34,404 nt of DNA from Nemertoderma westbladi (taxonomy: Eukaryota; Animalia; Xenacoelomorpha), in contig JAUCBJ010005416.1 of the NCBI GenBank assembly GCA_032718475.1, forward strand, positions 1 to 34,404, in the 5' to 3' direction. The notes below the pieces were generated by a model that had not been told where the DNA came from, did no database searches, and saw only the letters and a program-made list of their open reading frames with translations. Below are positions 3,278 to 32,531 of this stretch, one piece after another. Every line of letters starts with the position of its first letter. Position 1 is the stretch's first letter. Position numbers and translations under genes: made by a program.

Positions 3278-4287
3278 CACAGTAAACCCTTCCACTCTGT
3301 TTCTTAAAGGAATGCCTGTTCACTACCATAGGTGATCTTCCACAGTAAACCCTTCCACTCTGTTTCCTATATAAATGCCTGTTCTCCACCATAGGTGATC
3401 TTCCACAGTAAACCCTTCCACTCTGTTTCCTAAAGGAATGCCTGTTCACCACCATGGGTGATCTTCCATAGTAAACCCTTCCACTCTGTTTCCTAAAGGA
3501 ATACCTTTTCACCACCATGGGTGATCTTCCACAGTAAACCCTTCCACTCTGTTTCCTAAAGGAATGCCTGTTCACCACCATGGGTGATCTTCCATAGTAA
3601 ACCCTTCCACTCTGTTTCCTAAAGGAATACCTGTTCACCACCATGGGTGATCTTCCACAGTAAACCCTTCCACTCTGTTTCCTAAAGGAATGCCTGTTTA
3701 CCACCATGGGTGATCTTCCACAGTAAACCCTTCCACTCTGTTTCCTAAAGGAATGCCTGTTAACAACCATGGGTGATCTTCCGCAGTAAACCCTTCCGCT
3801 CTGTTTCCTAAAGGAATGCCTGTTCACCACCATGGGTGATCTTCCGCAGTAAACCCTTCCGCTCTGTTTCCTAAAGGAATACCTGTTCACCACCATGGGT
3901 GATCTTCCACAGTAAACCCTTCCACTCTGTTTCCTAAAGGAATGCCTGTTCACCACCATGAGTGATCTTACACAGTAAACCCTCCACTCTGTTTCCTAAA
4001 GGAATGCCTGCTCACCACCATGGGTGATCTTCCACAGTAAACCCTTCCACTCTGTTTCCTAAATGAATGCCTGTTCACCTCCATGGGTGATCTTCCACAG
4101 TAAACCCTTCCACTATGTTTCCTAAAGGAATGCCTGTTCACTACCATGGGTGATCTTCCACAGTAAACCCTTCCACTCTGTTTCCTAAAGGAATGCCTGT
4201 TCACCACCATGGGTGATCTTCCACAGTAAACCCTTCCACTCTGTTTCCTAAAGGAATTCCTGTTCACCAAAAATAGGTGATCTTCCA
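3278..4287. repeat. 63-bp minisatellite, about 16 copies
   Basis: Unit cacagtaaacccttccactctgtttcctaaaggaatgcctgttcaccaccatgggtgatcttc, head to tail with no spacers. Confidence 0.97.
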
Positions 4288-4366
4288 CCTTAAACCTTTT
4301 TCAAGTCTGATTTCCAAGTTACGTTTGTTCCTATTCGTCGACCAGTCAAGGATGATGACCAGGGTT

Positions 4367-7502: not shown

Positions 7503-7782
7503 TACGGAGAGACAGGGGGGGGGGGGGGGGGGGGACTGGACGCAAAAACCGCCTTGGCGAATTAATATCCCGCCTCAATGTTAAATTCCCAATTAGGGAA
7601 AGGAGCAGGTTACAGTGGCACGTTATTTTCACCAAAACAATAAACTAAACACAATAGAACATGTTAGAGGTTTATTTTTTAGAATAATCAGCTGTTATTT
7701 GCGTCGATTTTCCCCTGGAGATGGATTAATTTTTATTGCGTCCAGTTCCCCCCCCCCCCCCTCCTCCCTATCTGGCTTCGGA
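7503..7782 (+). mobile_element. MITE-like element (module A) with poly-G/poly-C ends
   Basis: Inverted ends GnACTGGACGCAA ... TTGCGTCCAGTTCn. Homologues at 2330, 32099 (reverse) and in part at 18886 and 34240. Confidence 0.75.
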
Positions 7783-8180
7783 ATAATAATTCATTTAGCG
7801 CGTTAAAAGATATTATTTAAAGTGTTCGTTGCTGTTTCAGGACAAAATGGGAGGACTTCGAACAATATACAAAAATATACAAAAAAATGCAAATAACAGA
7901 TTCATGTATGAAATGGGCTGAATTTAAACATCGTCATTGTCCAGCAAATACGTTCATTTTTTAATGAACAAACTTCATTTTGGTTTGGTGTCAGACATTG
8001 TATTAATTTTTGATGTACTCGGACACTCACCTCGGAACCCTGGTTTGTGGAATACACTGAAAAAACGAACCGACGGTTGTTTAAAAAAAAACCACCGGTT
8101 TTCAAAAAAACCACCGATTAAATTGGGGACAAAAAAAACGGCGGTTTATTTTGAAGAACCGGTGGTTAATTATAAGAGTA

Positions 8181-8668
8181 TAAACTGGCGGTTGTTATGC
8201 TATTATAAACTGGCGGTTGTTATGCTATTATAAACTGGCGGTTGTTATGCTATTATAAACTGGCGGTTGTTATGCTATTATAAACTGGCGGTTGTTATGC
8301 TATTATAAACTGGCGGTTGTTATGCTATTATAAACTGGCGGTTGTTATGCTATTATAAACTGGCGGTTGTTATGCTATTATAAACTGGCGGTTGTTATGC
8401 TATTATAAACTGGCGGTTGTTATGCTATTATAAACTGGCGGTTGTTATGCTATTATAAACTGGCGGTTGTTATGCTATTATAAACTGGCGGTTGTTATGC
8501 TATTATAAACTGGCGGTTGTTATGCTATTATAAACTGGCGGTTGTTATGCTATTATAAACTGGCGGTTGTTATGCTATTATAAACTGGCGGTTGTTATGC
8601 TATTATAAACTGGCGGTTGTTATGCTATTATAAACTGGCGGTTGTTATGCTATTATAAACTGGCGGTT
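8181..8668. repeat. 25-bp minisatellite, 19 identical copies plus a partial copy
   Basis: Unit taaactggcggttgttatgctatta; degenerate units continue to about 8735. Confidence 0.97.
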
Positions 8669-8856
8669 ATGAAATTATAACTGGCGGTTGTTATGAAAAC
8701 GGGCGGTTGTTATGAAAATGGCCGGTTGTTATGAAATTCTAAACTCGTATAAAACCATATTATAATATATTGAATTATTGACCCAATATATATTTACATA
8801 CCCATAAATGGATATTATATTTATATACATAAAAAATATGTAATTAGATAGAGAAT

Positions 8857-9205
8857 AATTCTAATTATAACGAAAAAAAAAACAGATCGTATCATAGTTT
8901 CCCAATATATATCACAATAATTGATGCCTTATAGTTCAGTTAGTATTCCCGGCGGTAGGTCTAGTTCAGGTCTAATTCTAATTATAACGAAAAAAAACAG
9001 ATCGTATCATAGTTTCCCAATATATATCACAATAATTGATGCATTATAGTTCAGTTAGTATTCCCGGCGGTAGGTCTAGTTCAGGTCTAATTCTAATTAT
9101 AACGAAAAAAAACAGATCGTATCATAGTTTCCCAATATATATCACAATAATTGATGCATTATAGTTCAGTTAGTATTCCCGGCGGTAGATCTAGTTCAGG
9201 TCTAA
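8857..9205. repeat. 115-117-bp triple tandem repeat containing the PWWP ORF stop codon and 3' flank
   Basis: Units start at 8857, 8974 and 9089 (aattctaattataacg...ctagttcaggtct). Confidence 0.93.
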
Positions 9206-9478
9206 CTCATTTTCTATTTCTTGTATTCCTGCAACAAATGCTGGTCTCGAGCACTTCTTCGAAAATTCGTGCCGATATTCCATATATGGAAACAAATAAA
9301 GACCCCGTACATCCTTCACCCATGCGGCATCCTTTGATCCATAAAAGTAGACCCATAAACATTTACCCATCTTTAATCCCGGAGGATCGGCCATGGCTGG
9401 TGGAGCAGAAATACGACCAGGCCATGGTGTATCCTTTTTGCGCATTTTCGCCCACACCAGATCACCAATCCTCATCAT
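9191..9478 (-). CDS. Stand-alone PWWP-domain ORF (GLYR1/NP60- or HDGF-like), transposon cargo
   Basis: MRIGDLVWAKMRKKDTPWPGRISAPP...KCLWVYFYGSKDAAWV...LFPY..YRHEF.K..RPAFVAGIQEIE covers the whole PWWP beta-barrel plus helices. It is uninterrupted and GC-richer than its flanks. Expression unknown. Confidence 0.8.
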   Translation of the reverse strand: MMRIGDLVWAKMRKKDTPWPGRISAPPAMADPPGLKMGKCLWVYFYGSKDAAWVKDVRGLYLFPYMEYRHEFSKKCSRPAFVAGIQEIENELDLN

Positions 9479-9534
9479 TTGCGACTCATCTGACTCCAGA
9501 CCAGAACTGGTCTGGCTCTGGTATTAAGATTGAA

Positions 9535-9880
9535 TAAAGAATGATTTCTCACTAAAATCTAGTTTAGTTTACCGACACTTTTGTATTTCTTCAAACCGCC
9601 GGTTAATGGGAAAAATTCCTTTGGAAAACCGGCATTTGTCCGAATATAACCGCCACTTTTGTAATTTTCTTCAAACCGCCAGTTTTAAAGGAATGATTTC
9701 TCACTAAAACCGGCAGTTAGTTAACCGCCATTTTGTATTTCTTTGTTTCTTCAAACCGCCGGTTAATGGGAAATTATAACTGTGAAAAACCGGCATTTTT
9801 CCGAATATAACCGCCACTTTTGTAATTTTCTTCAAACCGCCAGTTTTAAAGGAATGATTTCTCACTAAAACCGGCAGTAG
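9535..9880. repeat. Tandem duplication of about 160 bp in the right arm of the CACTG element
   Basis: gaatgatttctcactaaaa occurs three times; tttcttcaaaccgccggttaatgggaaa...ccgaatataaccgccacttttgtaattttcttcaaaccgccagttttaaag occurs twice. Confidence 0.85.
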
Positions 9881-10429
9881 CATGATATAACCAACTGTTT
9901 GATATTTTGACTTATATTAACAATAAATTCACCTAAACTAACTCACTCATGAACCGGCAGTTTTAATTATCAACCGACGGTTTATGAATGCCTTTGATTA
10001 ACATTTTATGCTAACCCCGGTTTTGAAATTTCTACCACCAGTACTTAAATACAACCACTGGTTAATAATTCGACCGGCACTTGGTTTTTTCAGTGTATGC
10101 TACTTTTGAAGTATTCACCATAAACTCTATTAAATCAGGTTTCAATAGCAATGAATCTAACATGCGATTTTCTGCCATGAATCGAGTTTTTACAGTTTTG
10201 AATGTTATATTTACAATTTAGTGTCGCTTTCATGCGACCTGATAAGAACCAAGCAAGCAGTTAGCCTTCTATGACAGAAATTGTTTTCTAAAGGAAGTCA
10301 AATATCTAAGAATAATTCCACTTCCAGAAATATTGCAATAAATCGTTAGTCATTAACGTTATTCTTGTATCCTAGGCAACCATCGAATTGTATTAACTGT
10401 ATTATCAACCAATTACAATATAGTCCAAT

Positions 10430-10810
10430 CTATTTCCGCCGACGCCTCCACATATAAGGCATAGTAATGTTGGATCGTCCGATATGAGAATCAACCGGAC
10501 AACCAAATGTTCTAGAGAATTCGTCGATATTAGCCAATGAGCCGAGGGCTCTGTACTGGGCCATTGTATGGACGCTGTTGATATTACTGAATACGGCATA
10601 TTGGTCATCAATCTCCGAGCACATGAGTTGGGAGAAGGATAAGTAGAACATCTTCTCATTATTTGTGTTTAAATTTCCCGCCAGATTTAGACCCGGCAGC
10701 GGTAGTTCAGATTGGCCGGTTTCTTTGATGTACAGTTTGTAGGCCCGCATAGATAGTGTGATTCCGGCGATATCTGCTACATTCTCCATTGAGGTCTGAA
10801 TACCGTTCAA
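10430..10810 (-). CDS. M13 metallopeptidase terminal coding exon (ENxAD zinc ligand, stop codon)
   Basis: atttttag|TTG AAC GGT; LNGIQTSMENVADIAG...KMFYLSFSQLMC...VHTMAQYRALGSLANIDEFSRTFGCP...MWRRRRK*. The TTG is an exon start, not an initiation codon. Confidence 0.95.
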   Translation of the reverse strand: MNGIQTSMENVADIAGITLSMRAYKLYIKETGQSELPLPGLNLAGNLNTNNEKMFYLSFSQLMCSEIDDQYAVFSNINSVHTMAQYRALGSLANIDEFSRTFGCPVDSHIGRSNITMPYMWRRRRK

Positions 10811-11749
10811 CTAAAAATATAAAATAGATTATTGTAATGTAACTAATAATTTTGTTTCCATTCCAACAGGTTAAATTACTAAAGTTACAGTTCAACCTAT
10901 TGTAGTTACATCATGGTGAGGAGTGCAATCACTTGCCGCAACAATTGTTACTTATTCCTGCTATCTTCAGCTTCAGGCCAAGCCTAGGGCGAAGTAAATC
11001 ATGGTCTACAATATATATCCCGTTATCTGGCTGCAGGTGCAGAAGTTCTTCCACCAATTGCCATTCTAGGATTGGCTCCTGATGAGGCACCAGCCAGTAG
11101 CGATGCGGTACATGGTCTGCTGAAATTTGTGGCACTATTTTCAAAATATTTACTTACTTCACATGTGCTACTTTGGTTAGTTGGATATGATGACTAGGGT
11201 TAATGCAAATCTAACAAAATGTTTTTCAAGCAAAGTTACAAATTGGAGCGCCTTATTAATTCAAGGATACTGTTCTTGAGATTTGGTACGTGTTTAAAGG
11301 TAATAAAAGTCTATCAGAATATTTGAATTTAAAAATTTTTTCAATCCCGTTTCCATGGTGATGGGTTTTAGGTTGATTTTCCACTATGACCGCCAGCTAG
11401 AAATAGAGCTACTATTTAATATTTATATCAACTATTTATAGCAACTGACATGCCTGGGTGTTGTCCTTTGTTTCTAATAATTGTTAAACGAAATTGAATA
11501 TTCTGGAATTTAAAAATCATGCTTTCAAAGGTCTTGCCCATATAAATATGGCCCGTTTAAATATGATCACAATTGACGATTTATAAAACATAACGTTGGC
11601 AAATTTAACTTATTATTTAAACTGACATGCCGAATAAAATGCTGTTTTATACAATTGGTAGACAATTATTCAAATTCATTCGTCATTATACTTATTACCA
11701 TGGCAACGGGAATGTGAAAGAATTGAAATGTAAATTATTTTTATACACT

Positions 11750-11800: not shown

Positions 11801-14051
11801 CTAACAATATATGCGAAAATGTTCTGAGCAGCACTTTACTCCAAGTACAATAATGTGGTCCCAGGTGGTTCCCATACCGGGCTGCCGGGATCACCGGATC
11901 TGGCGACTGGTCTCTCATCTTAGCCTCGTGCTGCGCGAAAGCCTTGTCGTCAGGGTTTTTTTTTTCAAAATGTCCGCTGTGAAAAGTTTCTAAACGGCGA
12001 GGAAAAATTTAGAAAAAGTAGGCCATTCATTACTTCCTGCATTACTTCCTGCATTGCTTTGATTTCTACTTTATTCAACCAAACGGTGTTGTACTGGTAA
12101 GTCGTATGTCGTATATGTCATAAGTCAAAATAAATTATGGAACACATTGGTTTCAATTCAATGGGAGCGCTTCCATGGGTATGTCATAAGTCGTTTGTTA
12201 CGACTCATGAGTCGAAAGTGATTATTTCCCATGTTCCATCTTTTGACATACGACTCATGAGTTATATCCGGTAAGAGGCCTGTGATTGGTGACTTTGGGT
12301 AGCAGCAAGCCAGAAAATATTGTACAGCAATTTATGGTGTTCCATTAATTCTTAGGCGCATCTTATATTTTTTAAGAAAATTAAATTAAGTAAAATAAAT
12401 TTGGTAAATTAATGCCATTTTTATTGGGAAGGAATATTCCACATGATTTGGGTGTTGTGACAGTAAAATAAGTATAAAATTTATAAGACTGTAAATTATG
12501 GGAATGTCAGTGAAACACTCTTAGACTGTAACACAGTCGGTGTCGATCTACCTAGAAATAAACAATACCAGAGAAGTGTGGGAGTTTATTTGATATTATA
12601 GAAGTTGGTACAAATGAAGCTGATGGAGATGAATCAGATTTAGAGGATCAGTATTAGATTCTAGTGAACGAACAAGGAACAAACAACATTACATAATAAA
12701 TTAAAATAGTTAATCTTAAATTTTGATTTACAGGTGTTTTTTTTATTTCAAACGCTGTAGTAAAGTTTATATTTTTCAATTCGTTGTTTGCAATATTTAA
12801 TTTTAGAAATATTTCTAAACAAGTTTAAAAAATTTAGAAATCACTATTTTTATTTATAAATTTCACTAACACAAAAAAAACAAAAAAAAAACCCTGCTTG
12901 GTGTTCTATCACACGCAACCTTTGAAACCTGTAACCTCGTATATATAAGGTATTCACAGATTATTATACTTTTAGACACCTCACGCACTTTCTGACGTTT
13001 AAGTGAACTTGAGTTAAGCAGTGTGGAGAGAGTCAAAACTGCGAGCCATCAGCGAACTGTTATAATCATACTATGGCCGTTTTCCAAAAGTCTGTGTATG
13101 TGTGTGATGTGTGTGTCAGTGTGTCGGGAGCCAATAATTAACTGCCCTTTCCTTGAACATAGAGTCCCAGTAGCCAATAACCGCTGAGTATTTCTAGCTT
13201 TACTTGCCAGCTTGCTTGATGTTGCTCAGCGACTGTGAGCGGTTGTTCGAGGAATTGAACTAGCCATAGTATAATTATAATTATTCGCGAAGATGGTTTG
13301 CAGCTTTTGCTGCACAAAGGCCCCACTCGTGTTTTTCTTTATACCCCACAAAGCAGTCTGTTTTTTATCCGGTCGGGGGATCCTGACCGGATAAGTAAAC
13401 TACGCGTCACCGTTTGCTTGGGGATAATGTTGGTAGCTAGGCCGAGGCCGTTGTAGTAAAATGATAAGAGTTTGTTGTTGTCTCTTGATACTTGAATGTC
13501 AATTAATAATAGCACAATAAAGAGTCTGAGTAACAGGTTTTGATGGATACCGGTATGATTGATAATATGTTGGTGACGGTGAAGAACATTACCGGTCTGC
13601 ACTAAAACTAATAACTGGGTAACTGAACAGTATACCAATATGTATTGATAATATATATGTGATCACTTCTACACTACTGTGGCCTCTTACCCAGTGGATG
13701 CCCTCCTTCGCCCCTATTGGCTAATAACCTAGTTCACGCCTTTCACTCTCTGGGAGTGTCCCCCCCCCCCCCTGTTACTGGCCCCTGCTGGTTGTCTCCC
13801 CTTCCGAGGTGGTTTGACCTCTAACCTCCCTTTGTGTGGCTTTGGGGTTGTACTGTCCCTGATATCGGTTGTGATACGAGATTAGTTACTGCTAATCTCG
13901 TATCTCCAATACATTGCTGAAAATGCCACTTCGCATTTTATGAGGGTAATGCGGCGGAATTGAATCCGCTTACAATAAATAGTTGTTCTTACAGTTGCCC
14001 ATACCATATAGTTGTCCTTACAGTTTCCGATGTCGTTAGGTTTGCCCTTAC

Positions 14052-14419: not shown

Positions 14420-16589
14420 AGTCCCAAAGAGCGTTTTAGGTCCCAAAGAGCATTAGGTCCCAAAGAGCATTAGGTCCCAAAGAGCGTTAGGTCCCAAAGA
14501 GCATTAGGTCCCAAAGAGCGTTAGGTCCCAAAGAGCGTTTTAGGTCCCAAAGAGCGTTAGATCCCAAAGAGCATTAGGTCGCAAAGAGCGTTAGGTCTCA
14601 AAGAGCGTTAGGTCCCAAAGAGCATTAGGTCGCAAAGAGCGTTAGGTCTCAAAGAGCGTTTTAGGTCTCAAAGAGCGTTTTAGGTCCCAAAGAGCATTTT
14701 AGGTCCCAAAGAGCGTTTTAGGTCCCAAAGAGCGTTAGATCCCAAAGCGCGTTTTAGGTCTCAAAGAGCATTAGGTCCCAAAGAGCGTTAGTTCCCAAAG
14801 AGCATTAGGTCGCAAAGAGCGTTAGGTCTCAAAGAGCGTTTTAGGTCCCAAAGAGCGTTTTAGGTCCCAAAGAGCGTTTTAGGTCCCAAAGAGCGTTAGG
14901 TCCCAAAGAGCATTTTAGGTCCCAAAGAGCGTTTTAGGTCCCAAAGCGCGTTTTAGGTCCCAAAGAGCGTTAGATCCCAAAGCGCGTTTTAGGTCTCAAA
15001 GAGCATTAGGTCCCAAAGAGCGTTAGTTCCCAAAGAGCATTAGGTCGCAAAGAGCGTTAGGTCCCAAAGAGCGTTTTAGGTCCCAAAGAGCGTTTTAGGT
15101 CCCAAAGAGCGTTTTAGGTCCCAAAGAGCGTTAGATCCCAAAGCGCGTTTTAGGTCTCAAAGAGCATTAGGTCCCAAAGAGCGTTAGGTCCCAAAGAGCA
15201 TTAGGTCGCAAAGAGCGTTAGGTCTCAAAGAGCGTTTTAGGTCCCAAAGAGCGTTTTAGGTCTCAAGGAGCATTTTAGGTCCCAAAGAGCGTTAGGTCCC
15301 AAAGAGCATTTTAGGTCCCAAAGAGCGTTTTAGGTCCCAAAGAGCGTTTTAGGTCCCAAAGAGCGTTAGATCCCAAAGAGCGTTAGGTCTCAAAGAGCGT
15401 TTTAGGTCCCAAAGAGCGTTTTAGGTCTCAAGGAGCATTTTAGGTCCCAAAGAGCGTTAGGTCCCAAAGAGCATTTTAGGTCCCAAAGAGCGTTTTAGGT
15501 CCCAAAGAGCGTTTTAGGTCCCAAAGAGCGTTAGATCCCAAAGCGCGTTTTAGGTCTCAAAGAGCATTAGGTCCCAAAGAGCGTTAGGTCCCAAAGAGCA
15601 TTAGGTCGCAAAGAGCGTTAGGTCTCAAAGAGCGTTTTAGGTCCCAAAGAGCGTTTTAGGTCCCAAAGAGCGTTTTAGGTCCCAAAGAGCGTTAGATCCC
15701 AAAGCGCGTTTTAGGTCTCAAAGAGCATTAGGTCCCAAAGAGCGTTAGGTCCCAAAGAGCATTAGGTCGCAAAGAGCGTTAGGTCTCAAAGAGCGTTTTA
15801 GGTCCCAAAGAGCGTTTTAGGTCCCAAAGAGCGTTTTAGGTCCCAAAGAGCGTTAGGTCCCAAAGAGCATTTTAGGTCCCAAAGAGCGTTTTAGGTCCCA
15901 AAGCGCGTTTTAGGTCCCAAAGAGCGTTAGATCCCAAAGCGCGTTTTAGGTCTCAAAGAGCATTAGGTCCCAAAGAGCGTTAGTTCCCAAAGAGCATTAG
16001 GTCGCAAAGAGCGTTAGGTCTCAAAGAGCGTTTTAGGTCCCAAAGAGCGTTTTAGGTCCCAAAGAGCGTTTTAGGTCCCAAAGAGCATTAGATCCCAAAG
16101 CGCGTTTTAGGTCTCAAAGAGCATTAGGTCCCAAAGAGCGTTAGGTCCCAAAGAGCATTAGGTCGCAAAGAGCGTTAGGTCTCAAAGAGCATTTTAGGTC
16201 CCAAAGAGCGTTTTAGGTCTCAAGGAGCATTTTAGGTCCCAAAGAGCGTTAGGTCCCAAAGAGCATTTTAGGTCCCAAAGAGCGTTTTAGGTCCCAAAGA
16301 GCGTTTTAGGTCCCAAAGAGCGTTAGATCCCAAAGCGCGTTTTAGGTCTCAAAGAGCATTAGGTCCCAAAGAGCGTTAGGTCCCAAAGAGCATTAGGTCG
16401 CAAAGAGCGTTAGGTCTCAAAGAGCGTTTTAGGTCCCAAAGAGCGTTTTAGGTCCCAAAGAGCGTTTTAGGTCCCAAAGAGCGTTAGATCCTAAAGCGCG
16501 TTTTAGGTCTCAAAGAGCATTAGGTCCCAAAGAGCGTTTTAGGTCCCAAAGAGCGTTTTAGGTCCCAAAGAGCGTTTTAGGTCCCAAAG
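14420..16589. repeat. 17/19-bp satellite, left block (homogeneous, with higher-order repeat)
   Basis: Unit aggtcccaaagagc(g/a)tt(tt), about 120 copies; intronic. Confidence 0.98.
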
Positions 16590-17841
16590 TGTACGCGCTT
16601 TTGAAGACCTTTAGCAGTTTAACCTGCCAAAATTTATATGTCTTTTGGTTTATAAATAGACTTTAGAAGTTGACAAATATTTAATACCAATAAACACAAC
16701 ATTAGCAGAAGCCAGCCTAGTGCGCGTCCATTCACCCGCTGGATATACCCGGGAGACTGGATTCTGAGGGCTTAGATTATTATTGCAGTGAAGCCTACTG
16801 TATTATTCGATTGATCGTTAATAAATAATTTCTGACTAATATTATTCACTTTCGGGAAATATTAACAGTTCCTTTAGGACGTGGCGCTCTATCTAAGTAA
16901 ACAGAGATATGACTTATACTAATCACAACGGTAAGTCGGTAAGGCTTATGATTCACGTATGAGGCGCATTCTTTAGGAAATGCTTAGTTATCAGTCACAA
17001 TCATGCACACTACCGGTAACGCACAATACTGCTCACTAATTTGCCGACCGTCAATGAATTTTATCATATATAAAGAGAATAGCAACGGACTCATGTAGTG
17101 CTTATCAAATAGCATTAAATTCACTACAAACCACAATAATATAAGTCGCAATCGCTATATATAACCCGTCTCTCTAACCTGTAGTGTATCAAGAAAATTG
17201 GGAAATTTGGGTTCTTTATAAATGTTCTCCAAATAATATTCAATCAACTGACATAAAATATGACAACAGTAAAAACATTAAGACGGTAGGTTAAGATAAG
17301 ATATGAACCGATATGTACAGTGATATGCACTGATAACAGCTATACGCTCTATAATTTAAGCCTACTAATGTTTCTTCTAAAGTATGAAACGAATTGACTC
17401 TAGAGCCGGTGTTCCTGGCCTAGATAGCAACAACAACAAAATATCACAAAAAACAGTAAGACTGAACACTCCTAGTATGATCGGCCGAATATCTACACGT
17501 CGACAGAAAAAATCGCTCTGATTGGCTCAAGCCAAACAAAGAACCATGCGTCCAAGGGCTGTTTCCATGCCAGCAACCAGCTGCTAGATGTCGCAATCTG
17601 AATCATCAAGGCCAAGCCGTGTAAAGGTATTTGGTGCATTGCGGGTTTTTTGCCTTACCATGTCCGCCAAAGCACGTATATAGAAGAATGACTTTTATGT
17701 CCGTTAAAACACCTATAACGGTACCTTGCGGGCGAGGGGAATATATATACAGTTAGAGAACCTTTTAGAGTATTCCAGCGCCTGGGGGGAAACTGGATTG
17801 CGAAGCAAAGGGGCCAGTTATATCCCACAGAATCTTTTACA
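16590..17841. mobile_element. Solo-LTR-like insertion (1252 bp) with 5-bp TSD CAAAG
   Basis: cccaaag|TGTA...TACA|caaagagcg. Removing the element and one TSD restores a perfect satellite unit. No long TIR and no meaningful ORF. CCAAT- and TATA-like motifs near 17520-17750. Confidence 0.8.
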
Positions 17842-18873
17842 CAAAGAGCGTTAGATCCCAAAGCGCGTTTTAGGTCTCAAAGAGCATTAGGTCTCAAAGA
17901 GCGTTAGGTCCCAAAGAGCATTTTAGGTCCCAAAGAGCGTTTTAGGTCCCAAAGAGCGTTTTAGGTCCCAAAAAGCGTTAGATCCCAAAGCGCGTTTTAG
18001 GTCTCAAAGAGCATTAGGTCCCAAAGAGCGTTAGGTCCCAAAGAGCATTAGGTCGCAAAGAGCGTTAGGTCTCAAAGAGCGTTAGGTCCCAAAGAGAGTT
18101 AGGTCCCAAAGAGCGTTAGGTTCCAAAGAGCGTTAGGTCCCAAAGAGTGTTTTAGGTCCCAAAGAGCATTTTAGGTCCCAAAGAGCATTTTAGGCTCCAA
18201 AGAGCGTTAGGTCCCAAAGAGCATTAGGTCCCAAAGAACGTTTTAGGTCCCAAAGAGCATTTTAGGTACCAAAGAGCGTTAGATCTCAAAGAGCATTAGG
18301 TCCCAAAGAGTGTTTTAGGTCCCAAAGAGCGTTAGGTCCCAAAGAGCGTTATGTCCCAAAGATCATTAGGTTCCAAAGAGCGTTAGGTCCCAAAGAGTGT
18401 TTTAGGTCCCAAAGAGCATTTCAGGTTCCAAAGAGCATTTGAGGTCCCAAAGAGCATTTGGTCCCAAAGAGCATTTTAGGTCCCAAAGAGTGTTAGGTTC
18501 CAAAGAGCGTTAGGCTCCAAAGAGCGTTAGGTCCCAAAGAGCGTTAGGTCCCAAAGAGCGTTAGGTCCCAAAGAGCATTTTAGGTCCCAAAGACTGTTAG
18601 GTCCAAAAGAGTGTTTTAGGTTGCAAAGCGCATTTTAGGTTCCAAAGAGCGTTAGGTCTCAAAGAGCGTTAGGTCCCAAAGAGCGTTAGGTTCCAAAGAG
18701 CGTTAGGTCCGAAAGTGCGTTTTAGGTCCCAAAGAGCGTTAGATCCCAAAGAGTGTTTTAGGTCTCAAGGAGCATTTTAGGTCCCAAAGAGCGTTAGGTC
18801 CCAAAAAAGTGTTAGGTCCGAAAGAGAGTTTTAGGTCCCAAAGAACATTAGGTCCCAAAGAGTGTTAGGTCCC
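17842..18873. repeat. 17/19-bp satellite, right block (more degenerate)
   Basis: Same unit with increasing point variants toward 18873. Confidence 0.97.
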
Positions 18874-19305
18874 ATTGCCATTTTCAGGAGCAGGTTAGTA
18901 ATGGAACAGGTTACAGAGGAGTGTTGGGGGAACCAAAACAATAAATGAAAGTTAACACATGTGTTTTGTAGAGGTCTTTAGTCTTTGGTTGTTTGTTTTG
19001 TACTCAGCCATGTATGACCAGAGGACCACCACCATTCCTCTCAAAAGCCAACTAACCAACCGTAGAAAAATATTTCATAAAGGCTGAATAAGTTCTACGA
19101 GAGCCATATGGTCAAAAAATGTTGCCGGGTGGTGCGTGGTTACTGAGATGTACATTGGTTGTTAAGTGACATGAACATATTTACTATAGGCCTACTACAT
19201 CATATTACTCATTATATAAGGGGTATGTTATGAATACAGTTCAACATTAATTTGTAATCCTGTCACTCGAATGTGATTGACGTCACACGCTTGTTTATGA
19301 CTCAC

Positions 19306-20367: not shown

Positions 20368-22015
20368 CCCTTTCACTACTGATTCAAGATTGTATGTGTT
20401 CCCCACAGACTGATGTCTGTCGGTCTTTCTGTCAGTTTGTCTGCCAAGACTTAAGAAAGAATTAAATCTACTAACATTCTCGCTTTGGGGGTTTTAAGGG
20501 TTGGTGATTTCATTTCTGATGTCAGTTTTTAGGACTGACCAACTCTAGGCTGTCTGTGTCTGTATGTATGTCTGTTTGTCTGTCAGTCTGTCTGTCAAAA
20601 AATAAGGAAGCATATTATGTAATAAAAACATTCGCTATGGGGTTTTCTAGGTCTCTGATTTCATTTCTGATGTCCTTATTTACGACTGACCAACTCTAGG
20701 CTGACTGTGTGTGTATGTATGTCTGTTTGTCTGTCAGTCTGTTTGTCAAAAAATAAGGAAGCATCTTATGTAATAAAAACATTCGCTATGGGGGTTTTCT
20801 AGGTCTCTGATTTCATTTCTGATGTCAGTTTTTACGACTGACCAAATCTAGACTGTCTGTGTCTGTATGTATGTCTGTTTGTCTCTCAGTCTGTCTGTCA
20901 AAAAATAAGGAAGCATATTATGTAATAAAAACATTCGCTATGGGGGTTTTCTAGGTCTCTGATTTCATTTCTGATATCACTTTTTAAGACTGACAAACTC
21001 TAGGCTGTCTGTGTCTGTATGTATGTCTGTTTGTCTGTCAGTCTGTTTGTCAAAAAATAAGGAAGCATATTATGTAATAAAAAAAACATTCGCTATGGGG
21101 GTTTTCTAGGTCTCTGATTTCATTTCTGATGTCGGTTTTTACGACTGACCAACTCTAGGCTGTCTGTGTCTGTCTGTTTGTCTGTCACACAATGTGTCGT
21201 GAGTCGAGCCAGGCGTGAAAACTGACATCAGAAATGAAATCAGAGACCTGGAAAACCCCCACGGCGAATGTTTTTATTGCATAATATGCTTCCTTATTTT
21301 TTGACAAACAGACATACATACAGACACAGACAGCCTAGAGTTGGTCAGTCGTAAAAACTGACATCAGAAATGAAATCAGAGACCTGGAAAACCCCCATGG
21401 CGAATGTTTTTATTACATAATATGCTTCCTTATTTTTTGACAGACAGACAAACAGACATACATACAGACACAGACAGCCTAGAGTTGGTCAGTCGTAAAA
21501 ACTGACATCAGAAATGAAATCAGAGACCTGGAAAACCCCCATGGCGAATGTTTTCATTACATAATATGCTTCCGTATTTTTTGACAGACAGACTGACAGA
21601 CATACAGACATACATACAGACACAGACAGCCTAGAGTTGGTCAGTCGTAAAAACTGACATCAGAAATGAGATCAGCTACCTGGAAAACCCCCATGGCGAA
21701 TGTTTTTATTACATAATATGCTTCCTTATTTTTTGACAGACAGACTGACAGACATTTTATTACCAGTACCAGCAGGCCTTTATATTCCATTATACTTACT
21801 GCCCTACAGCCTTACCAAAAACCAAAACAACCAATTAAAATTTGAAATTACCACTTAATTTTGTTATGAGGAAGAGTACTGAACATGTAATGGGTGTGTC
21901 AGCTATCAGACTGACATGTTTAGGTGGCCATAGAGCTCCTAGTACTTCGTGGCATAACACCTAGGCCATAGTCCAGTAGGTGTGACCTAACTGTTATGCC
22001 ATAGTAGTGAAAGGG
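20368..22015. mobile_element. piggyBac-like non-autonomous element with internal foldback array
   Basis: TTAA|CCCTTTCACTACT ... AGTAGTGAAAGGG|TTTTAA: 13-bp TIR with CCC/GGG ends; right TSD imperfect. Confidence 0.7.
20473..21755. repeat. About 152-bp units: about 5 forward then about 3.5 inverted (large palindrome)
   Basis: cattcgc anchors at 20629, 20780, 20932 and 21087. Reverse-complement units (aaaactgacatcagaaatgaaatcagagacc...) begin at 21218 after a spacer of about 30 nt. Confidence 0.93.
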
Positions 22016-25600: not shown

Positions 25601-25666
25601 TTATCCTTGAATAGTCTGGTTGTAGGAATTTTATATTTCATTGATAATTGTAACATACCAGAGAAA

Positions 25667-26176
<510 letters not shown>

Positions 26177-27607: not shown

Positions 27608-30600
27608 ATGCTTGCCGATAGATGTTGCTGCTGCAGCAAAAAATTACGTAATAACTATGTCATTCTACAGTGCACTCTATGTCACGAACAATCACATATT
27701 AAATGCCTACAAGGTGTGAAAATAAATGACTTTGAATATTTGAAGGCATGTAACGACTGGATCTGCGGTACATGTTTCTCTGACCTTTCCAGAAAATTGT
27801 AAAGGACAAGGATTATATATTGACTCTATGTGACTATAGACTACCCTCGGTAATTAGTTTAGATCTTCTTGACGATAAATTTGTCAATTTCTTTGACAAT
27901 GAAGAGTCGGTTTTCGCTGACACTGAATTCGATCCTGATACAAATTTTTTCAATAATAATAACCTCAACTGCAAATATTATTCAAATTTATACGATGTAT
28001 ATAAGGGACAAAATAATCAGTTTTCTGTAATGCAAACTAATGTCAGGAGTTTAAACAAAAATAGTGACGATTTGCAGTTGTAATTACTATGTTTGGGTAA
28101 ACCCCCTGACGTAATTGGTGTAAGTGAAACTTGGCAAAACGCTGACAATCATGATCTTTTCCAAATGAAAAACAATAACTTTTTTTATAACGTTCGTACA
28201 AATAAAATTGGTGGAGTTGCTGGAATTTATATCCGGGATGACCTGGACTGTGAAAAAAGATCTGATTTGGGTTCATTTAAATGTGGATTATATGAAACAA
28301 TTTTTGTAGAGTGGAAAAGTGAAGGGCACAGAAATGTGATATTTGCTAATATTTATCGTCCTTCTAACACAGATATTGTTTCATTTTTGGAATGCTTGAA
28401 AACGGACTTAGAAAAAATAAATAATGAAGGAAAATTATGTTATATTACGGGCGATTTCAATCTAAATGTTCTACATGCAAATGATTGTCCTCAACCGCAA
28501 AATTTCCTTGAGAAATATTAAATCAAAATTTTTTTGTATCACTGCTAAATAAACCTACTCGAATAACCGAACATAGTGCAACGGCGATAGATAATATACT
28601 CACTAATGACTTTACCACCATCACACATACCGGGGTTCTACTTGCACAAATTTCTGATCATTTGCCCATAATTACTTTTTGTAACATTCCACATTCGACG
28701 AAGGCTCCCCCATAAATTTTTCTTCCGACGTGATCATTCAACTATAAATCTGGACCGATTTAAACAAGCGCTTCAGAGTCTAAATTCTGAAGGTTGACAT
28801 AATGTGCTCGGCTCGAACAATCATGAGTCTGCTAATGATAATTTCATCTCTTCCTACCAAATATTATATGAAACACATTTTCCACTCAACAAAGTAGGCC
28901 TAAGGATAATCAACCCTGATAAACCTTGGATCACGGAATCACTGTTTAAGTCAATTCGCACAAAACATAAATTATATGCCGAATTTATTAAAATTCGGAC
29001 ACTCGAATATAAGCATAAGTTTTTAACATTCAAAAACAAATTAACAACTATGGTATAAACTAAGGTATACTTTAGTAATTTATTCATGAAATTCAAGGGA
29101 AATGTAGGTAAAACATGGGATGTTCTTAAGTCAATTATCCCACTAACTTCTAGCAAAAAATCATACAAATCGAATGTCAATTCGTCATTTCTCATCAATA
29201 AAAGGCTTGTAGACAATGGGAGTGATATTGTTAATGGCTTTAATGAACACTACTCAACATTCGCCAACAAACTACTGTAGCAGATAAAATTCCCACAAAC
29301 TCAGACTCGATTTACAAATATCTTCCAGGTGGTCAGTGCAACTCAATGTTACTTTCCACTATCTCAAAGGAAGAGCTACATAACATTGTCTTTTCTCTTG
29401 AAAAGAAAAAAAGCAATCGGCCCCGATCTAGTGAACCCCTCAATATTTAAAAAGGTATTTGAACACATTGCTGATCCATTGTTACATGTGGTTAACTTGT
29501 CTATTGAAACCGTACCGAAAGGTATGAAAGTGGCAAAAATTACACCTATAAATCGAAAAACAAAAAATTGGTTATAAACTACAGACCAGTTAGTGTTTTA
29601 TCATTTAGTTACAAACTAATCGAGAAATGTGTGTTTAATCAGTTAATATCATACTTGGAAAAAAAATAATATTATTTCTGATCACCAGTTTGGCTTCCTA
29701 AAAGGAAAATCAATTGATCTGGCACTTGCACTTCTTTTCAATGAACTATCGAATGCAGCAGAGAATACTTTAACTACAGTAGGTGTATTTCTTGATCTCT
29801 CAAAGGCCTTTGACACTGTTAATCACACAATTTTGTATAAAAAAATGGAACACTACGGCATTCGGGGTAACCCACTAGAATGGTTTAAAAGTTACCTTTC
29901 TGATAGATTTCAATATGTTCAGTACGGTGGATTTACTTCAACAAAGAAACCCATTACCATTGGTGTGCCTCAAGGATCAATCCTAGGTCCTATTCTATTT
30001 CTGCTATATATAAATGACATTGTTAATTATTCAAAAATTCTAAGTTTCATACTTTTTGCGGATGATACCAATGTCTTTCTTTCAGGTAAAAATGTATAAG
30101 AAATTATCCACACCTTGAATATTTAACTAAAAACGTCACTAATTGGTTGGCAATAAATAAACTTACGCTTAATATTGATAAAACTAATTCCATGGTATTC
30201 AAACAGAAACGTCCTTCAAATTTAATCTTACCACATCTACAAATATCTAATGCCTCTATTCCAGAAGTAACCACAATAAAGTTTCTTGGTCTTATGCTAT
30301 CAAACGACTTAAAGTGGAAAACACACATTAATTATATAAGATCAAAGATTTCTAAAAACGTTGGAATTATCAATAAACTGAAACATTTCATTCCTGAAAC
30401 TATACGTCTCATGTTATATCATACACTAGTGGCATCTTACTTATCTTTTGGTCTGATACTGTGGGGTTTCAATGCGACAGAGTCAACTCTTAAACTACTG
30501 ATAAAATTGCAGAATAAAATAATACGTGTCGTCTCACTGAAATCCAAAACAGTTCACGCCGAACCACTTTTCAAATATTTAAAAGTACTAAAACTTCAGG

Positions 30601-31300
30601 ATTCTTATCGGTTACAATGTGTCAAATTAATCTACTGTATAAACATAGAACATCCTCGGTGAAACTACCCTCAGAATTGAGTTCCAAACTGATACTCAAT
30701 CGACAGATACACTCTTATCCAACAAGAAATGCTGCTAATTATCACCTGCCCCTATATAAAACAGCATTAGCTAATGGTTATTCCAATAATAACCAAAATA
30801 ATACCCAGAATCGCCTTCGTTTACTTCACCTATTTGTGTACCGTAATGATTTCCATATAACGACTATTCTTCTTCTCTCTGTTTATAAATTTCTGTTTAA
30901 TTAATATAAATTGTTCTCAATGAATTTAAAAATGACTATAAAGTAAATTTTTAATGCACAGTGTCATTTTATTTCTCACATTTACAGTGCAGCTCAACTC
31001 GGCGCATAAGCTATGCTTTGATGAGGTTAGTACTTTGGTTGAAGTCGGAATTCGGGTGCAATTGTTTTCTTTAGATTTATACTGTAGACCTACTAACTAG
31101 ACTTAGTCAGTTGTATCTGTTAAACAATATCGTACAGTAATTATCCTAAGGCCTCAGGGGGGTGGGTTGGGTTGGTAACACGTGCATGCTCTCATTAAAT
31201 ATTTTAGTTTAATCGTGTTAGGTATAGGTTTAAATTTATTACATCATTATATTGGATATTATACGAGTCCTATGGGCTCAATCAATCAACCAATCAATCA
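27608..31300 (+). mobile_element. Decayed near-full-length CR1/L2-group LINE (PHD finger + APE endonuclease + RT), antisense in an intron
   Basis: PHD C..C...IxCxxC...H..C...W.C..C; APE motifs NVRSL, VSETW, GGV..YI, IYRP, GDFN, SDHLP; RT motifs FLDLSKAFDTVNH, GVPQGSILGPILFLLYIND, FADDT. Many stops and frameshifts. Probable (AATC)n tail at 31280-31300. 5' boundary uncertain. Confidence 0.92.
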
Positions 31301-32098: not shown

Positions 32099-32531
32099 CG
32101 GAGCCCCTAAGAGGCAGATAGGGGGGAAACTGGACGCAATAAAAATTCATCCCTCAATAAGGGGAAATTCGACGCAAATAACAGCTGATTACTCTCAAAA
32201 ATAAAACTGTAGGCCTAACCTGTTCTATTGTGCTTATTTATTGTTTTGGTTAAAATAACGTGTCACTGTAACCTGCTCCTTTCCCTAAAAGTGAGAATTT
32301 ATCATTGAGGCGGGATATTAATTCGGCAAGATGGGATTTGCGTCCAGTCCCCCCCCCCCCCCCCCTCCCCTCCCCTGTCCCCTAAGAGGACATAAAATCC
32401 TCGTTTTATACTGTATGTTCGCTATCTCAATATATTGAGTTAGAAGGCATGTTCGCTAACTCAATGAGTTAGCGGACATCTACTGTATACTAAGTAAAAA
32501 ACGAGGATTTCATGTCCTCTTAGGGGCTCCC
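32099..32531. mobile_element. Composite MITE (module A reversed + palindromic module B), TA-flanked
   Basis: TA|CGGAGCCCCTAAGAGG ... CCTCTTAGGGGCTCCC|TA, with an internal third cccctaagagg at 32379 starting a palindrome of about 150 bp. Confidence 0.75.

What the first reader, a model, noticed from the sequence alone, without database searches (positions are those of the whole stretch)
8055..10095. CACTG-ended DNA transposon whose only cargo is an intact stand-alone PWWP chromatin-reader ORF
Seen: 12-bp CACTG TIRs, TA flanks, oppositely oriented subterminal GGCGGTT/AACCGCC motifs, no transposase, and one uninterrupted 95-aa ORF that is essentially just a PWWP domain. Known: PWWP domains bind H3K36me2/3 nucleosomes and DNA; the LEDGF PWWP tethers lentiviral integration; CACTA elements capture host gene fragments. 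Inference: this is either a Pack-CACTA-like capture of a GLYR1/NP60-like domain or a remnant accessory gene of an autonomous element that uses PWWP for target-site selection or anti-silencing. The second would be an unusual, possibly undescribed, system.
Basis: partly seen in the sequence, partly recalled or inferred. Interest (0 to 1): 0.85.

Follow-up and report, generated by a model that had tools for sequence, protein, structure and literature searches.

The report
DNA transposon carrying a PWWP domain
A real, low-copy jumping gene in an animal genome carries an unbroken reading frame for a PWWP chromatin-binding domain that has lost one of its three histone-reading residues; it is likely a shortened copy of a longer element, and the domain is predicted to grip DNA rather than read the H3K36me3 mark.

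Summary
In detail: perfect 12-bp CACTG ends, TA on both sides, inward-facing GGCGGTT arrays, and a 95-codon PWWP frame (Pfam E 8e-14; model pLDDT 91). Contigs of public DNA runs show a low-copy family whose ends stop exactly at the TA.

(1) 'Only cargo' is true of this copy only. Two other runs lack its 9513-9525 junction, and a contig in one of them runs on for 753 unseen bases there, so this is likely an internal-deletion form and the PWWP may be one exon of a longer gene. (2) The cage Tyr is an Asp (82 of 90 relatives have Tyr/Phe), while the HRP3 DNA-contact Lys and Arg are kept; H3K36me3 reading is doubtful and DNA gripping is more likely. (3) The protein is at most 43% identical to 90 relatives yet keeps 18 of 22 conserved columns, so it is not a decayed copy of a typical GLYR1 or HDGF.

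No transposase, empty site, RNA or dN/dS could be obtained. Reader capture by transposons is known; I found no PWWP case in print, and the scan's notes held none.

The parts
8053..8054 (.). Left TA (target-site duplication, or fixed first letters of the end)
   Evidence: Sequence. Related ends in runs X1-X4 are laid from 8052 or 8053 with at least 4 different flanks. No empty site seen.
8055..8066 (+). Left terminal inverted repeat CACTGAAAAAAC
   Evidence: depth rises from 26.9 to 172.7 (X1), 36.4 to 161 (X2), 42.9 to 230 (X3), 0 to 91.5 (X4) across this boundary.
8068..8167 (+). Left subterminal imperfect palindromes AACC-N3-GGTT (8068, 8090, 8157), likely transposase binding sites
   Evidence: role inferred by analogy with CACTA subterminal repeats (recalled).
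8179..8736 (+). Left arm arrays: 25-bp unit x20.8 (98% matches) and 19-bp unit x3.1, built on the GGCGGTT motif
8856..9205 (.). 115-bp unit x3.0; the first unit on the minus strand holds the last codons and the stop of the ORF and starts at a donor-like GT
9191..9478 (-). 95-codon PWWP ORF; cage Met12, Asp16 (normally Tyr/Phe), Trp19, Phe45; predicted DNA contacts Lys11 and Arg78
9479..9523 (-). 15 further open codons upstream of the ATG, with acceptor-like CAG sites (exon starts at 9517, 9511, 9506 or 9489)
   Evidence: splicing not shown
9513..9525 (.). Junction specific to this copy; other copies leave the window's sequence at 9512 and at 9526
   Evidence: Loose ends behind 9512 in X2 and X3; X3 record 22 (944 bases, 191 laid); cover left over for these 13 bases about 0 in X3, 10 per base in X2, 256 in X1
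9535..9878 (-). Right arm: about 81-bp and 161-bp repeats holding AACCGCC motifs (GGCGGTT when read inward)
10084..10095 (-). Right terminal inverted repeat
   Evidence: X1 record 6 (9878-10097, depth 128) ends at the TA, flank record depth 27.7
10096..10097 (.). Right TA
10430..10811 (-). Context, not part of the element: likely last exon of a neprilysin-like (M13 peptidase) gene; its stop lies 335 bases from the element
   Evidence: Pfam PF01431 E 5.7e-15; acceptor-like sequence

Best explanation
This is a TA-flanked DNA transposon copy without a transposase, likely an internal-deletion form of a longer CACTA/EnSpm-like element, and its PWWP frame is likely a relic exon of a gene that the element's lineage carried under selection, predicted to grip DNA rather than read H3K36me3. 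Shown: the ends, the arm motifs, repeated ends with different flanks, the PWWP fold, the lost cage residue and the copy-specific junction. Inferred: a transposase made elsewhere in the genome binds the GGCGGTT / AACC-N3-GGTT motifs in both arms, cuts at CACTG and inserts at TA. Inferred: in the full-length ancestor the PWWP belonged to the transposase or to a TnpA-like helper and held the complex on nucleosomal or AT-rich DNA, much as LEDGF holds lentiviral integrase but encoded by the element. In this copy the domain is most likely a passenger.
For: Vehicle: (ends, motifs, contig ends at the TA, at least 4 other flanks). Deletion form: X2 and X3 bridge the same right junction (records 12 and 23) but lack cover of 9513-9525, and X3 record 22 continues 753 unlike bases below 9526. 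Family-borne PWWP: in X1 the ORF record has depth 109 and the right-end record 128 against 27.7 for the flank; a second variant with 13 differences in 190 bases is in X1, X2 and X3 and, by matching depths, likely belongs with a contig of about 2 kb that also has GGCGGTT repeats. Long selection as a protein: best identity 43% to 90 relatives (their median nearest neighbour is 63%); 18 of 22 conserved columns kept but only 3 of 33 variable ones; neutral decay to 70% identity left the frame open in 0.35-14% of 2000 runs per setting. Cage and DNA contacts: Asp16 where 82 of 90 have Tyr/Phe; Lys11 and Arg78 match HRP3 Lys18 and Arg78. In HRP3, Y22A costs 15-fold in H3K36me3 binding with weaker effect on chromatin binding, and Lys18/Arg78 select TA-rich DNA (PMC6547440, passages). 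Exon-like edges: acceptor-like sites upstream and a donor-like GT at 9206, right after the last helix.
Against: No autonomous partner was seen: 0 of 100 protein relatives showed a transposase domain (best 5 families shown per protein), and the extra bases in other copies could not be read. 9 of 90 relatives are as isolated as the query, and 4 of 35 GLYR1-type proteins also lack the cage Tyr/Phe, so a fast-evolving host paralog fits too. The 90 relatives were selected by likeness to the query, which inflates the conserved-column match. Coding versus non-coding divergence between the two variants is not different (13 of 190 versus 15 of 142, p 0.24). Of 5 listed substitutions inside the ORF 4 change the amino acid; X3 shows a 4-base insertion in one contig and X4 a truncated copy, so present copies decay. 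HRP3 Gly21, Lys77 and Lys79 are not kept, and Lys11 is near-universal (84 of 90), so it says little. The donor-like site is weak. Contig depth is not a copy number.
Confidence: 0.5

Rival explanations
1. Pack-CACTA-like passive capture: the element picked up an exon of a divergent host PWWP gene (a lineage-specific GLYR1 or HDGF paralog) with flanking intron sequence, and the domain never served the transposon.
For: All named or typed relatives are host chromatin proteins: 35 of 100 carry the GLYR1 dehydrogenase domains and 4 the LEDGF domain. Splice-like edges fit a captured exon. Copies decay. Divergent host paralogs without the cage residue exist.
Against: A decayed copy of a typical GLYR1/HDGF is unlikely, so the donor must be an unseen odd paralog. 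The second PWWP variant seen in X1-X3 appears to sit next to arm-type repeats as well (linkage inferred from depth), so no non-transposon donor was seen.
Confidence: 0.3
2. A working stand-alone mini-gene: the 95-aa PWWP is expressed from the right arm and, in trans, steers insertion to H3K36me3 gene bodies or shields the element from silencing.
For: The frame is open, the ATG sits where GLYR1 and HDGF proteins start, the model is confident, and this one insertion lies 335 bases past the stop of a likely host gene.
Against: The cage Tyr is lost. A lone reader has no second domain to hold a transposase. This copy's upstream region is a derived junction. No AATAAA/ATTAAA lies within 1 kb after the stop (first at 8150). 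One insertion site says nothing on bias.
Confidence: 0.1
3. The vehicle is not CACTA/EnSpm-like but another TA-targeting group, most plausibly Tc1/mariner (CA..TG ends and TA duplication; recalled). This is independent of where the PWWP came from.
For: Strict TA at all related ends seen. The animal CACTA-related elements in the papers read begin CCC, not CAC (PMC1636069, PMC4298943; passages).
Against: A 12-bp TIR followed by hundreds of bases of asymmetric motif arrays is CACTA-like anatomy (recalled). CMCT elements share CA..TG ends with 2-5 bp duplications, EnSpm has CAC..GTG, and ESTA makes TA duplications (PMC12730594, passages).
Confidence: 0.2
4. Assembly artefact or chance pairing of repeats.
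For: A 12-14 bp inverted pair alone can arise by chance. No empty site was seen.
Against: The left junction is bridged in X1 (record 1, 7790-8208) and the right junction in X2 and X3, which come from two studies; contig ends fall at the TA on both sides.
Confidence: 0.02

Closest known systems
CMCT clade DNA transposons (EnSpm/CACTA, ESTA, Plavaka; Kojima 2025, PMC12730594, passages and 2 of 88 supplement hits read)
   Same: CAC..GTG ends; 2-bp flanking repeat; TA as in ESTA.
   Different: ESTA was described from fungi, with TET/JBP as cargo; 'PWWP' occurs 0 times in that paper's text and supplement. No transposase here to place it.
Animal CACTA-related TRC elements (SmTRC1, PMC1636069; Spongebob, PMC4298943; passages read)
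   Same: 2-bp direct repeats, internal tandem repeats, truncated copies of several sizes.
   Different: Their ends start CCC and the SmTRC1 TIR is 54 bp; no PWWP in the passages seen (not searched for in those two papers).
Transposon-chromatin reader fusions (Grau-Bove et al., 10.1101/2021.11.30.470311, passages read)
   Same: A mobile element carrying a Royal-family or other histone-reader domain; includes hAT-Chromo fusions in a sponge.
   Different: The 823 candidate fusions are said to be mostly PHD and Chromo; PWWP is not named among them in the passages seen. Supplementary Table 6 could not be seen and may list some.
HRP3/HDGF/LEDGF and GLYR1 (NDF/N-PAC) PWWP domains
   Same: Same fold (VIA-align Z 13.3, rmsd 2.4 over 86 residues to 6iip_A); Trp, Phe, Met of the cage and the Lys/Arg DNA contacts kept.
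   Different: Cage Tyr replaced by Asp with a one-residue loop insertion; 43% identity at best; no dehydrogenase or integrase-binding domain attached; lies inside a transposon.
Pack-CACTA / Pack-MULE gene-fragment capture (recalled, not read)
   Same: Non-autonomous element with a gene piece between its arms.
   Different: No close host donor found; the cargo shows the pattern of long selection rather than recent copying.

Membership tests
CMCT (CACTA/EnSpm, ESTA) | 5'-CA..TG-3' termini (CAC..GTG in EnSpm) | tested here: met
   CACTG..CAGTG; definition from PMC12730594
CMCT (CACTA/EnSpm, ESTA) | 2-5 bp target-site duplication (TA in ESTA) | tested here: inconclusive
   TA on both sides and at related ends, but no empty site was seen, so TA could be part of the end
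CMCT (CACTA/EnSpm, ESTA) | Subterminal repeats of a short motif in both arms (feature recalled) | tested here: met
   23 GGCGGTT left, 7 AACCGCC right; arrays
CMCT (CACTA/EnSpm, ESTA) | DDE transposase with C(2)C and H(3-4)H motifs in the autonomous partner | not testable with these tools
   No transposase frame in this copy; no genome held; longer contigs cannot be fetched
IS3EU | TAYGG..CCRTA ends, TIR over 30 bp, 6-bp duplication | tested here: not met
   Ends read TACAC..GTGTA, perfect repeat 15 bp, and the 6 bases outside the TA differ
Tc1/mariner | TA duplication and CA..TG-type ends (recalled) | tested here: inconclusive
   Ends are compatible; no empty site; arm anatomy is atypical
Tc1/mariner | DD34E/D transposase in the autonomous partner | not testable with these tools
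   No partner in reach
PWWP domain (PF00855) | Profile match above the gathering score; five-strand barrel plus C-terminal helices | tested here: met
   52.3 bits against 25.6; model pLDDT 90.8; Z 13.3 to HRP3
H3K36me2/3-reading PWWP | Three-residue aromatic cage (HDGF2 Y18, W21, F44; HRP3 Y22, W25, F48) | tested here: not met
   2 of 3 kept; Asp16 (or Thr17, by gap placement) at the Tyr position
GLYR1/NDF (N-PAC) | PWWP joined to a dehydrogenase-like domain; placement in the GLYR1 clade | tested here: inconclusive
   No dehydrogenase sequence in the element; quick tree on 84 columns gives no starred set holding the query
Pack-type capture element | Cargo closely matches an identifiable host gene elsewhere in the genome | not testable with these tools
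   No genome held; no close protein relative

The most novel reading that the evidence does not exclude
The autonomous parent is an animal TA-targeting CMCT transposon that encodes its own LEDGF-like tether: a PWWP domain, joined to the transposase or a helper protein, whose methyl-lysine cage has been remodelled so that it grips nucleosomal or TA-rich DNA and delivers the transposon ends to insertion sites without a host adaptor.
Probability: 0.2. Interest if true: 0.75.

Novelty: new variant of a known kind. Interest (0 to 1): 0.42.

Why it matters
Chromodomain and PHD readers on transposons are known, and lentiviruses borrow a host PWWP protein for targeting. A cut-and-paste element that encodes its own PWWP would be the missing self-contained version, and a natural example of a reader turned from histone mark to DNA. 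It would give a compact module to test how DNA transposons choose chromatin. If it is only passive capture, it is an ordinary gene-fragment-carrying element, of modest interest as an animal example.

Tried and rejected
No genome is held for this window, so genome-wide copy search, dN/dS and donor search were not possible. Protein word searches found no relative at 52-167 aa and none significant among 28 candidates at 168-2000 aa; the exact protein is not in the 15-billion collection. The metagenome scan gave 2 loci, both short chance matches in GC-rich DNA. Viral contigs gave 0 loci by protein, by end pattern and by alignment. The end pattern in prokaryote genomes gave 8 loci; 0 of 8 matched the element by blastn or the PWWP by tblastn. 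The viral fold library gave 0 matches at E 0.001. ESM Atlas returned generic PWWP clusters only. No RNA holder was listed; this is no evidence on expression. No empty site was seen in 4 runs; contigs show presence, not absence. IS3EU was considered after a note of the scan and rejected. The tree did not finish its careful search; the quick tree leaves GLYR1 versus HDGF open, and my 'HRP3-like' labels were set by eye, with one wrong (P0064). Paper searches for a PWWP-carrying DNA transposon: 2 papers; 173, 40 listed; 5; 10; 20; none of the listings showed one; most were seen as listing and abstract start only. Repbase and Dfam were not available. The journal version of the chromatin-evolution paper is not held. 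Complex prediction was not used: there is no partner protein to test.

Full report
Observation. The element runs from 8055 to 10095. The 12-mer CACTGAAAAAAC occurs at 8055-8066 (+) and 10084-10095 (-) and nowhere else in the window at up to one mismatch. TA lies outside both ends. A short inverted pair is weak evidence by itself: 5 of 100 shuffles gave two matches, and 60 Markov simulations gave 1.15 perfect 14-bp pairs per window, none beginning TACAC. The arms are decisive. All 23 GGCGGTT of the window lie in the left arm and 7 of 9 AACCGCC in the right arm, so both arms read GGCGGTT inward. The left arm is a 25-bp unit x20.8, the right arm has 81/161-bp repeats, and a 115-bp unit x3 lies inside. 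The ORF 9478-9191 gives 95 aa and matches Pfam PWWP at E 8.1e-14 over nearly the whole profile. Its model has pLDDT 90.8 and aligns to HRP3 at Z 13.3. No frame in the element is long enough for a transposase.

Is it a family? No genome is held, so I used contigs of four public DNA runs (three samples, three studies), laid on the two parts beside the long array. Depth steps up at 8053 in all four runs. Related ends are laid from 8052 or 8053 with at least four different flanks, and repeat contigs end exactly at 8053 and at 10097, so the TA is shared. These other ends are about 80-87% alike and may be sister families. In X1 the right-end record has depth 128 and an ORF record 109, against 27.7 for the flank, which suggests a handful of copies; the tool warns that depth is not copy number. 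The insertion at this site is bridged on the left in X1 and on the right in X2 and X3. No empty site was seen.

This copy is likely shortened. Record coordinates are on the record's own strand (the same 349-base record is 1-190 on + and 160-349 on -). Read so, X3 record 22 (944 bases, depth 303) matches 9716 down to 9526 and then continues for 753 unlike bases. Both PWWP variants in X2 and X3 leave the window's sequence behind 9512 with the same loose end (2 records each, agreement 0.98). Bin arithmetic leaves about 0 cover for 9513-9525 in X3, 10 per base in X2 and 256 in X1. So X2 and X3 lack this junction though they carry the insertion, and the commoner form likely has at least 0.75 kb more between the right arm and the PWWP. 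A gain in the others cannot be excluded, but loss in one allele is simpler. A second variant (13 differences in 190 bases) appears in X1-X3, at depths that match a contig of about 2 kb with 1.8 kb of unlike sequence left of 8729; that may be more element or host flank. I could not read these bases.

Gene or exon? The ATG sits where GLYR1 and HDGF proteins begin, but the frame is open 15 codons further up, with acceptor-like CAG sites there. A weak donor-like GT at 9206 follows the last helix, exactly where the 115-bp triplication starts, five codons before the stop. No poly(A) signal lies within 1 kb after the stop. An exon of a longer gene and a stand-alone gene both fit; no RNA holder was listed.

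The protein. Of 100 relatives from the full HMMER search, 99 have PWWP, 35 the GLYR1 dehydrogenase domains, 4 the LEDGF domain and 0 a transposase domain among the families shown. I aligned 90 of them, dropping 9 truncated domains and 1 non-PWWP hit. The query's best identity is 43%; the median nearest neighbour among the others is 63%, but 9 of 90 are as isolated. It keeps 18 of 22 conserved columns (others: median 19) and 3 of 33 variable ones (median 9); hit selection inflates the first figure. Neutral decay to 70% identity left the frame open in 14% of 2000 runs without indels and 0.35% with them. So it is not a rotting copy of a typical host gene; it was kept as a protein for a long time, in a transposon or as an odd host paralog. 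The quick tree does not choose between GLYR1 and HDGF. Among present copies, 4 of 5 listed ORF substitutions change the amino acid, one contig has a 4-base insertion and one copy is truncated. Coding and non-coding divergence between variants do not differ (p 0.24).

Reader or DNA clamp? The methyl-lysine cage is three aromatic residues (HDGF2 Y18, W21, F44; PMC3119473, passages). The query keeps Trp19 and Phe45 but has Asp16 where 82 of 90 relatives have Tyr or Phe; 4 GLYR1-type proteins also lack it. In HRP3, Y22A lowers H3K36me3 binding 15-fold but has weaker effects on chromatin binding, while Lys18 and Arg78 bind the minor groove and favour TA-rich DNA (PMC6547440, passages). The query keeps both as Lys11 and Arg78 (Arg in 17 of 90 relatives), but not Gly21, Lys77 or Lys79. 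The domain is therefore predicted to hold DNA or nucleosomes and to read H3K36me3 poorly. The link to TA targeting is a hypothesis.

Mechanism. Shown: ends, motifs, repeated ends, fold, lost cage residue, copy-specific junction. Inferred: movement by a transposase supplied in trans that binds the arm motifs and inserts at TA; origin of the PWWP as part of an element-encoded protein that tethered the complex to DNA; present status as passenger. I put this at 0.5, passive capture from an unseen paralog at 0.3, and a working H3K36me3-targeting or anti-silencing mini-gene at 0.1.

Known systems. CMCT elements share CA..TG ends and 2-5 bp duplications, and ESTA makes TA duplications (PMC12730594, passages; supplement search). 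Animal CACTA-related elements have 2-bp repeats but CCC ends. IS3EU is excluded by ends and flanks; Tc1/mariner is not excluded. Without the transposase I say it works like a CACTA/EnSpm element and do not file it as a member. Transposons carrying chromatin readers are widespread, 823 candidate fusions, mostly PHD and Chromo (10.1101/2021.11.30.470311, passages); its supplementary table was closed and may list PWWP cases. Five searches showed no PWWP-carrying DNA transposon, and seven look-ups in the scan's notes showed no such finding.

Verdict. A real, low-copy, non-autonomous DNA transposon with an unusual cargo. New variant of a known kind; interest 0.42. The self-encoded tether reading (probability 0.2) would deserve 0.75.

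Noticed in passing
window 10430-10811 (-): Likely last exon of a neprilysin-like M13 peptidase (Pfam E 5.7e-15) with an acceptor-like site; its C-terminus looks divergent, and no AATAAA/ATTAAA lies between its stop and the element.
   Followed up: partly
window 11951-12896: Small element with CAGGG..CCCTG ends and flanks that agree at 6 of 8 bases; hAT-like by recalled criteria.
   Followed up: partly
window 20368-22015: Foldback element with CCCTTTCACTACT ends, TTAA on the left and TTTT on the right, and inverted arrays of 144-152 bp units at 84-92% arm identity; piggyBac-like ends by recalled criteria.
   Followed up: partly
window 7508-7773: Short inverted-repeat element with poly-G/poly-C arms (41 nt, 83% complementary) just left of the finding.
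   Followed up: no
window 27608-30662: Fragmented LINE-like element: weak PHD and endonuclease hits and reverse-transcriptase-like frames in pieces.
   Followed up: no
window 14421-18874, 3278-4296, 25666-26175: Satellite arrays: 17-19 bp CAAAGAGCG-type units with higher-order periods, a 63-bp unit x16 and an ACAG microsatellite x128.
   Followed up: no
window 11140-11500: Very high-copy repeat in all four runs (summed depth up to 9,346 in X1 against 27.7 for the flank).
   Followed up: no
run X3, record 15: An 8,638-base contig has a related CACTG end at 613-651 followed by AACCGCC motifs; a candidate long relative that could not be fetched.
   Followed up: no
window 32100-32530: Short element with perfect inverted ends of about 15 bp starting GGAGCCCC.
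   Followed up: no
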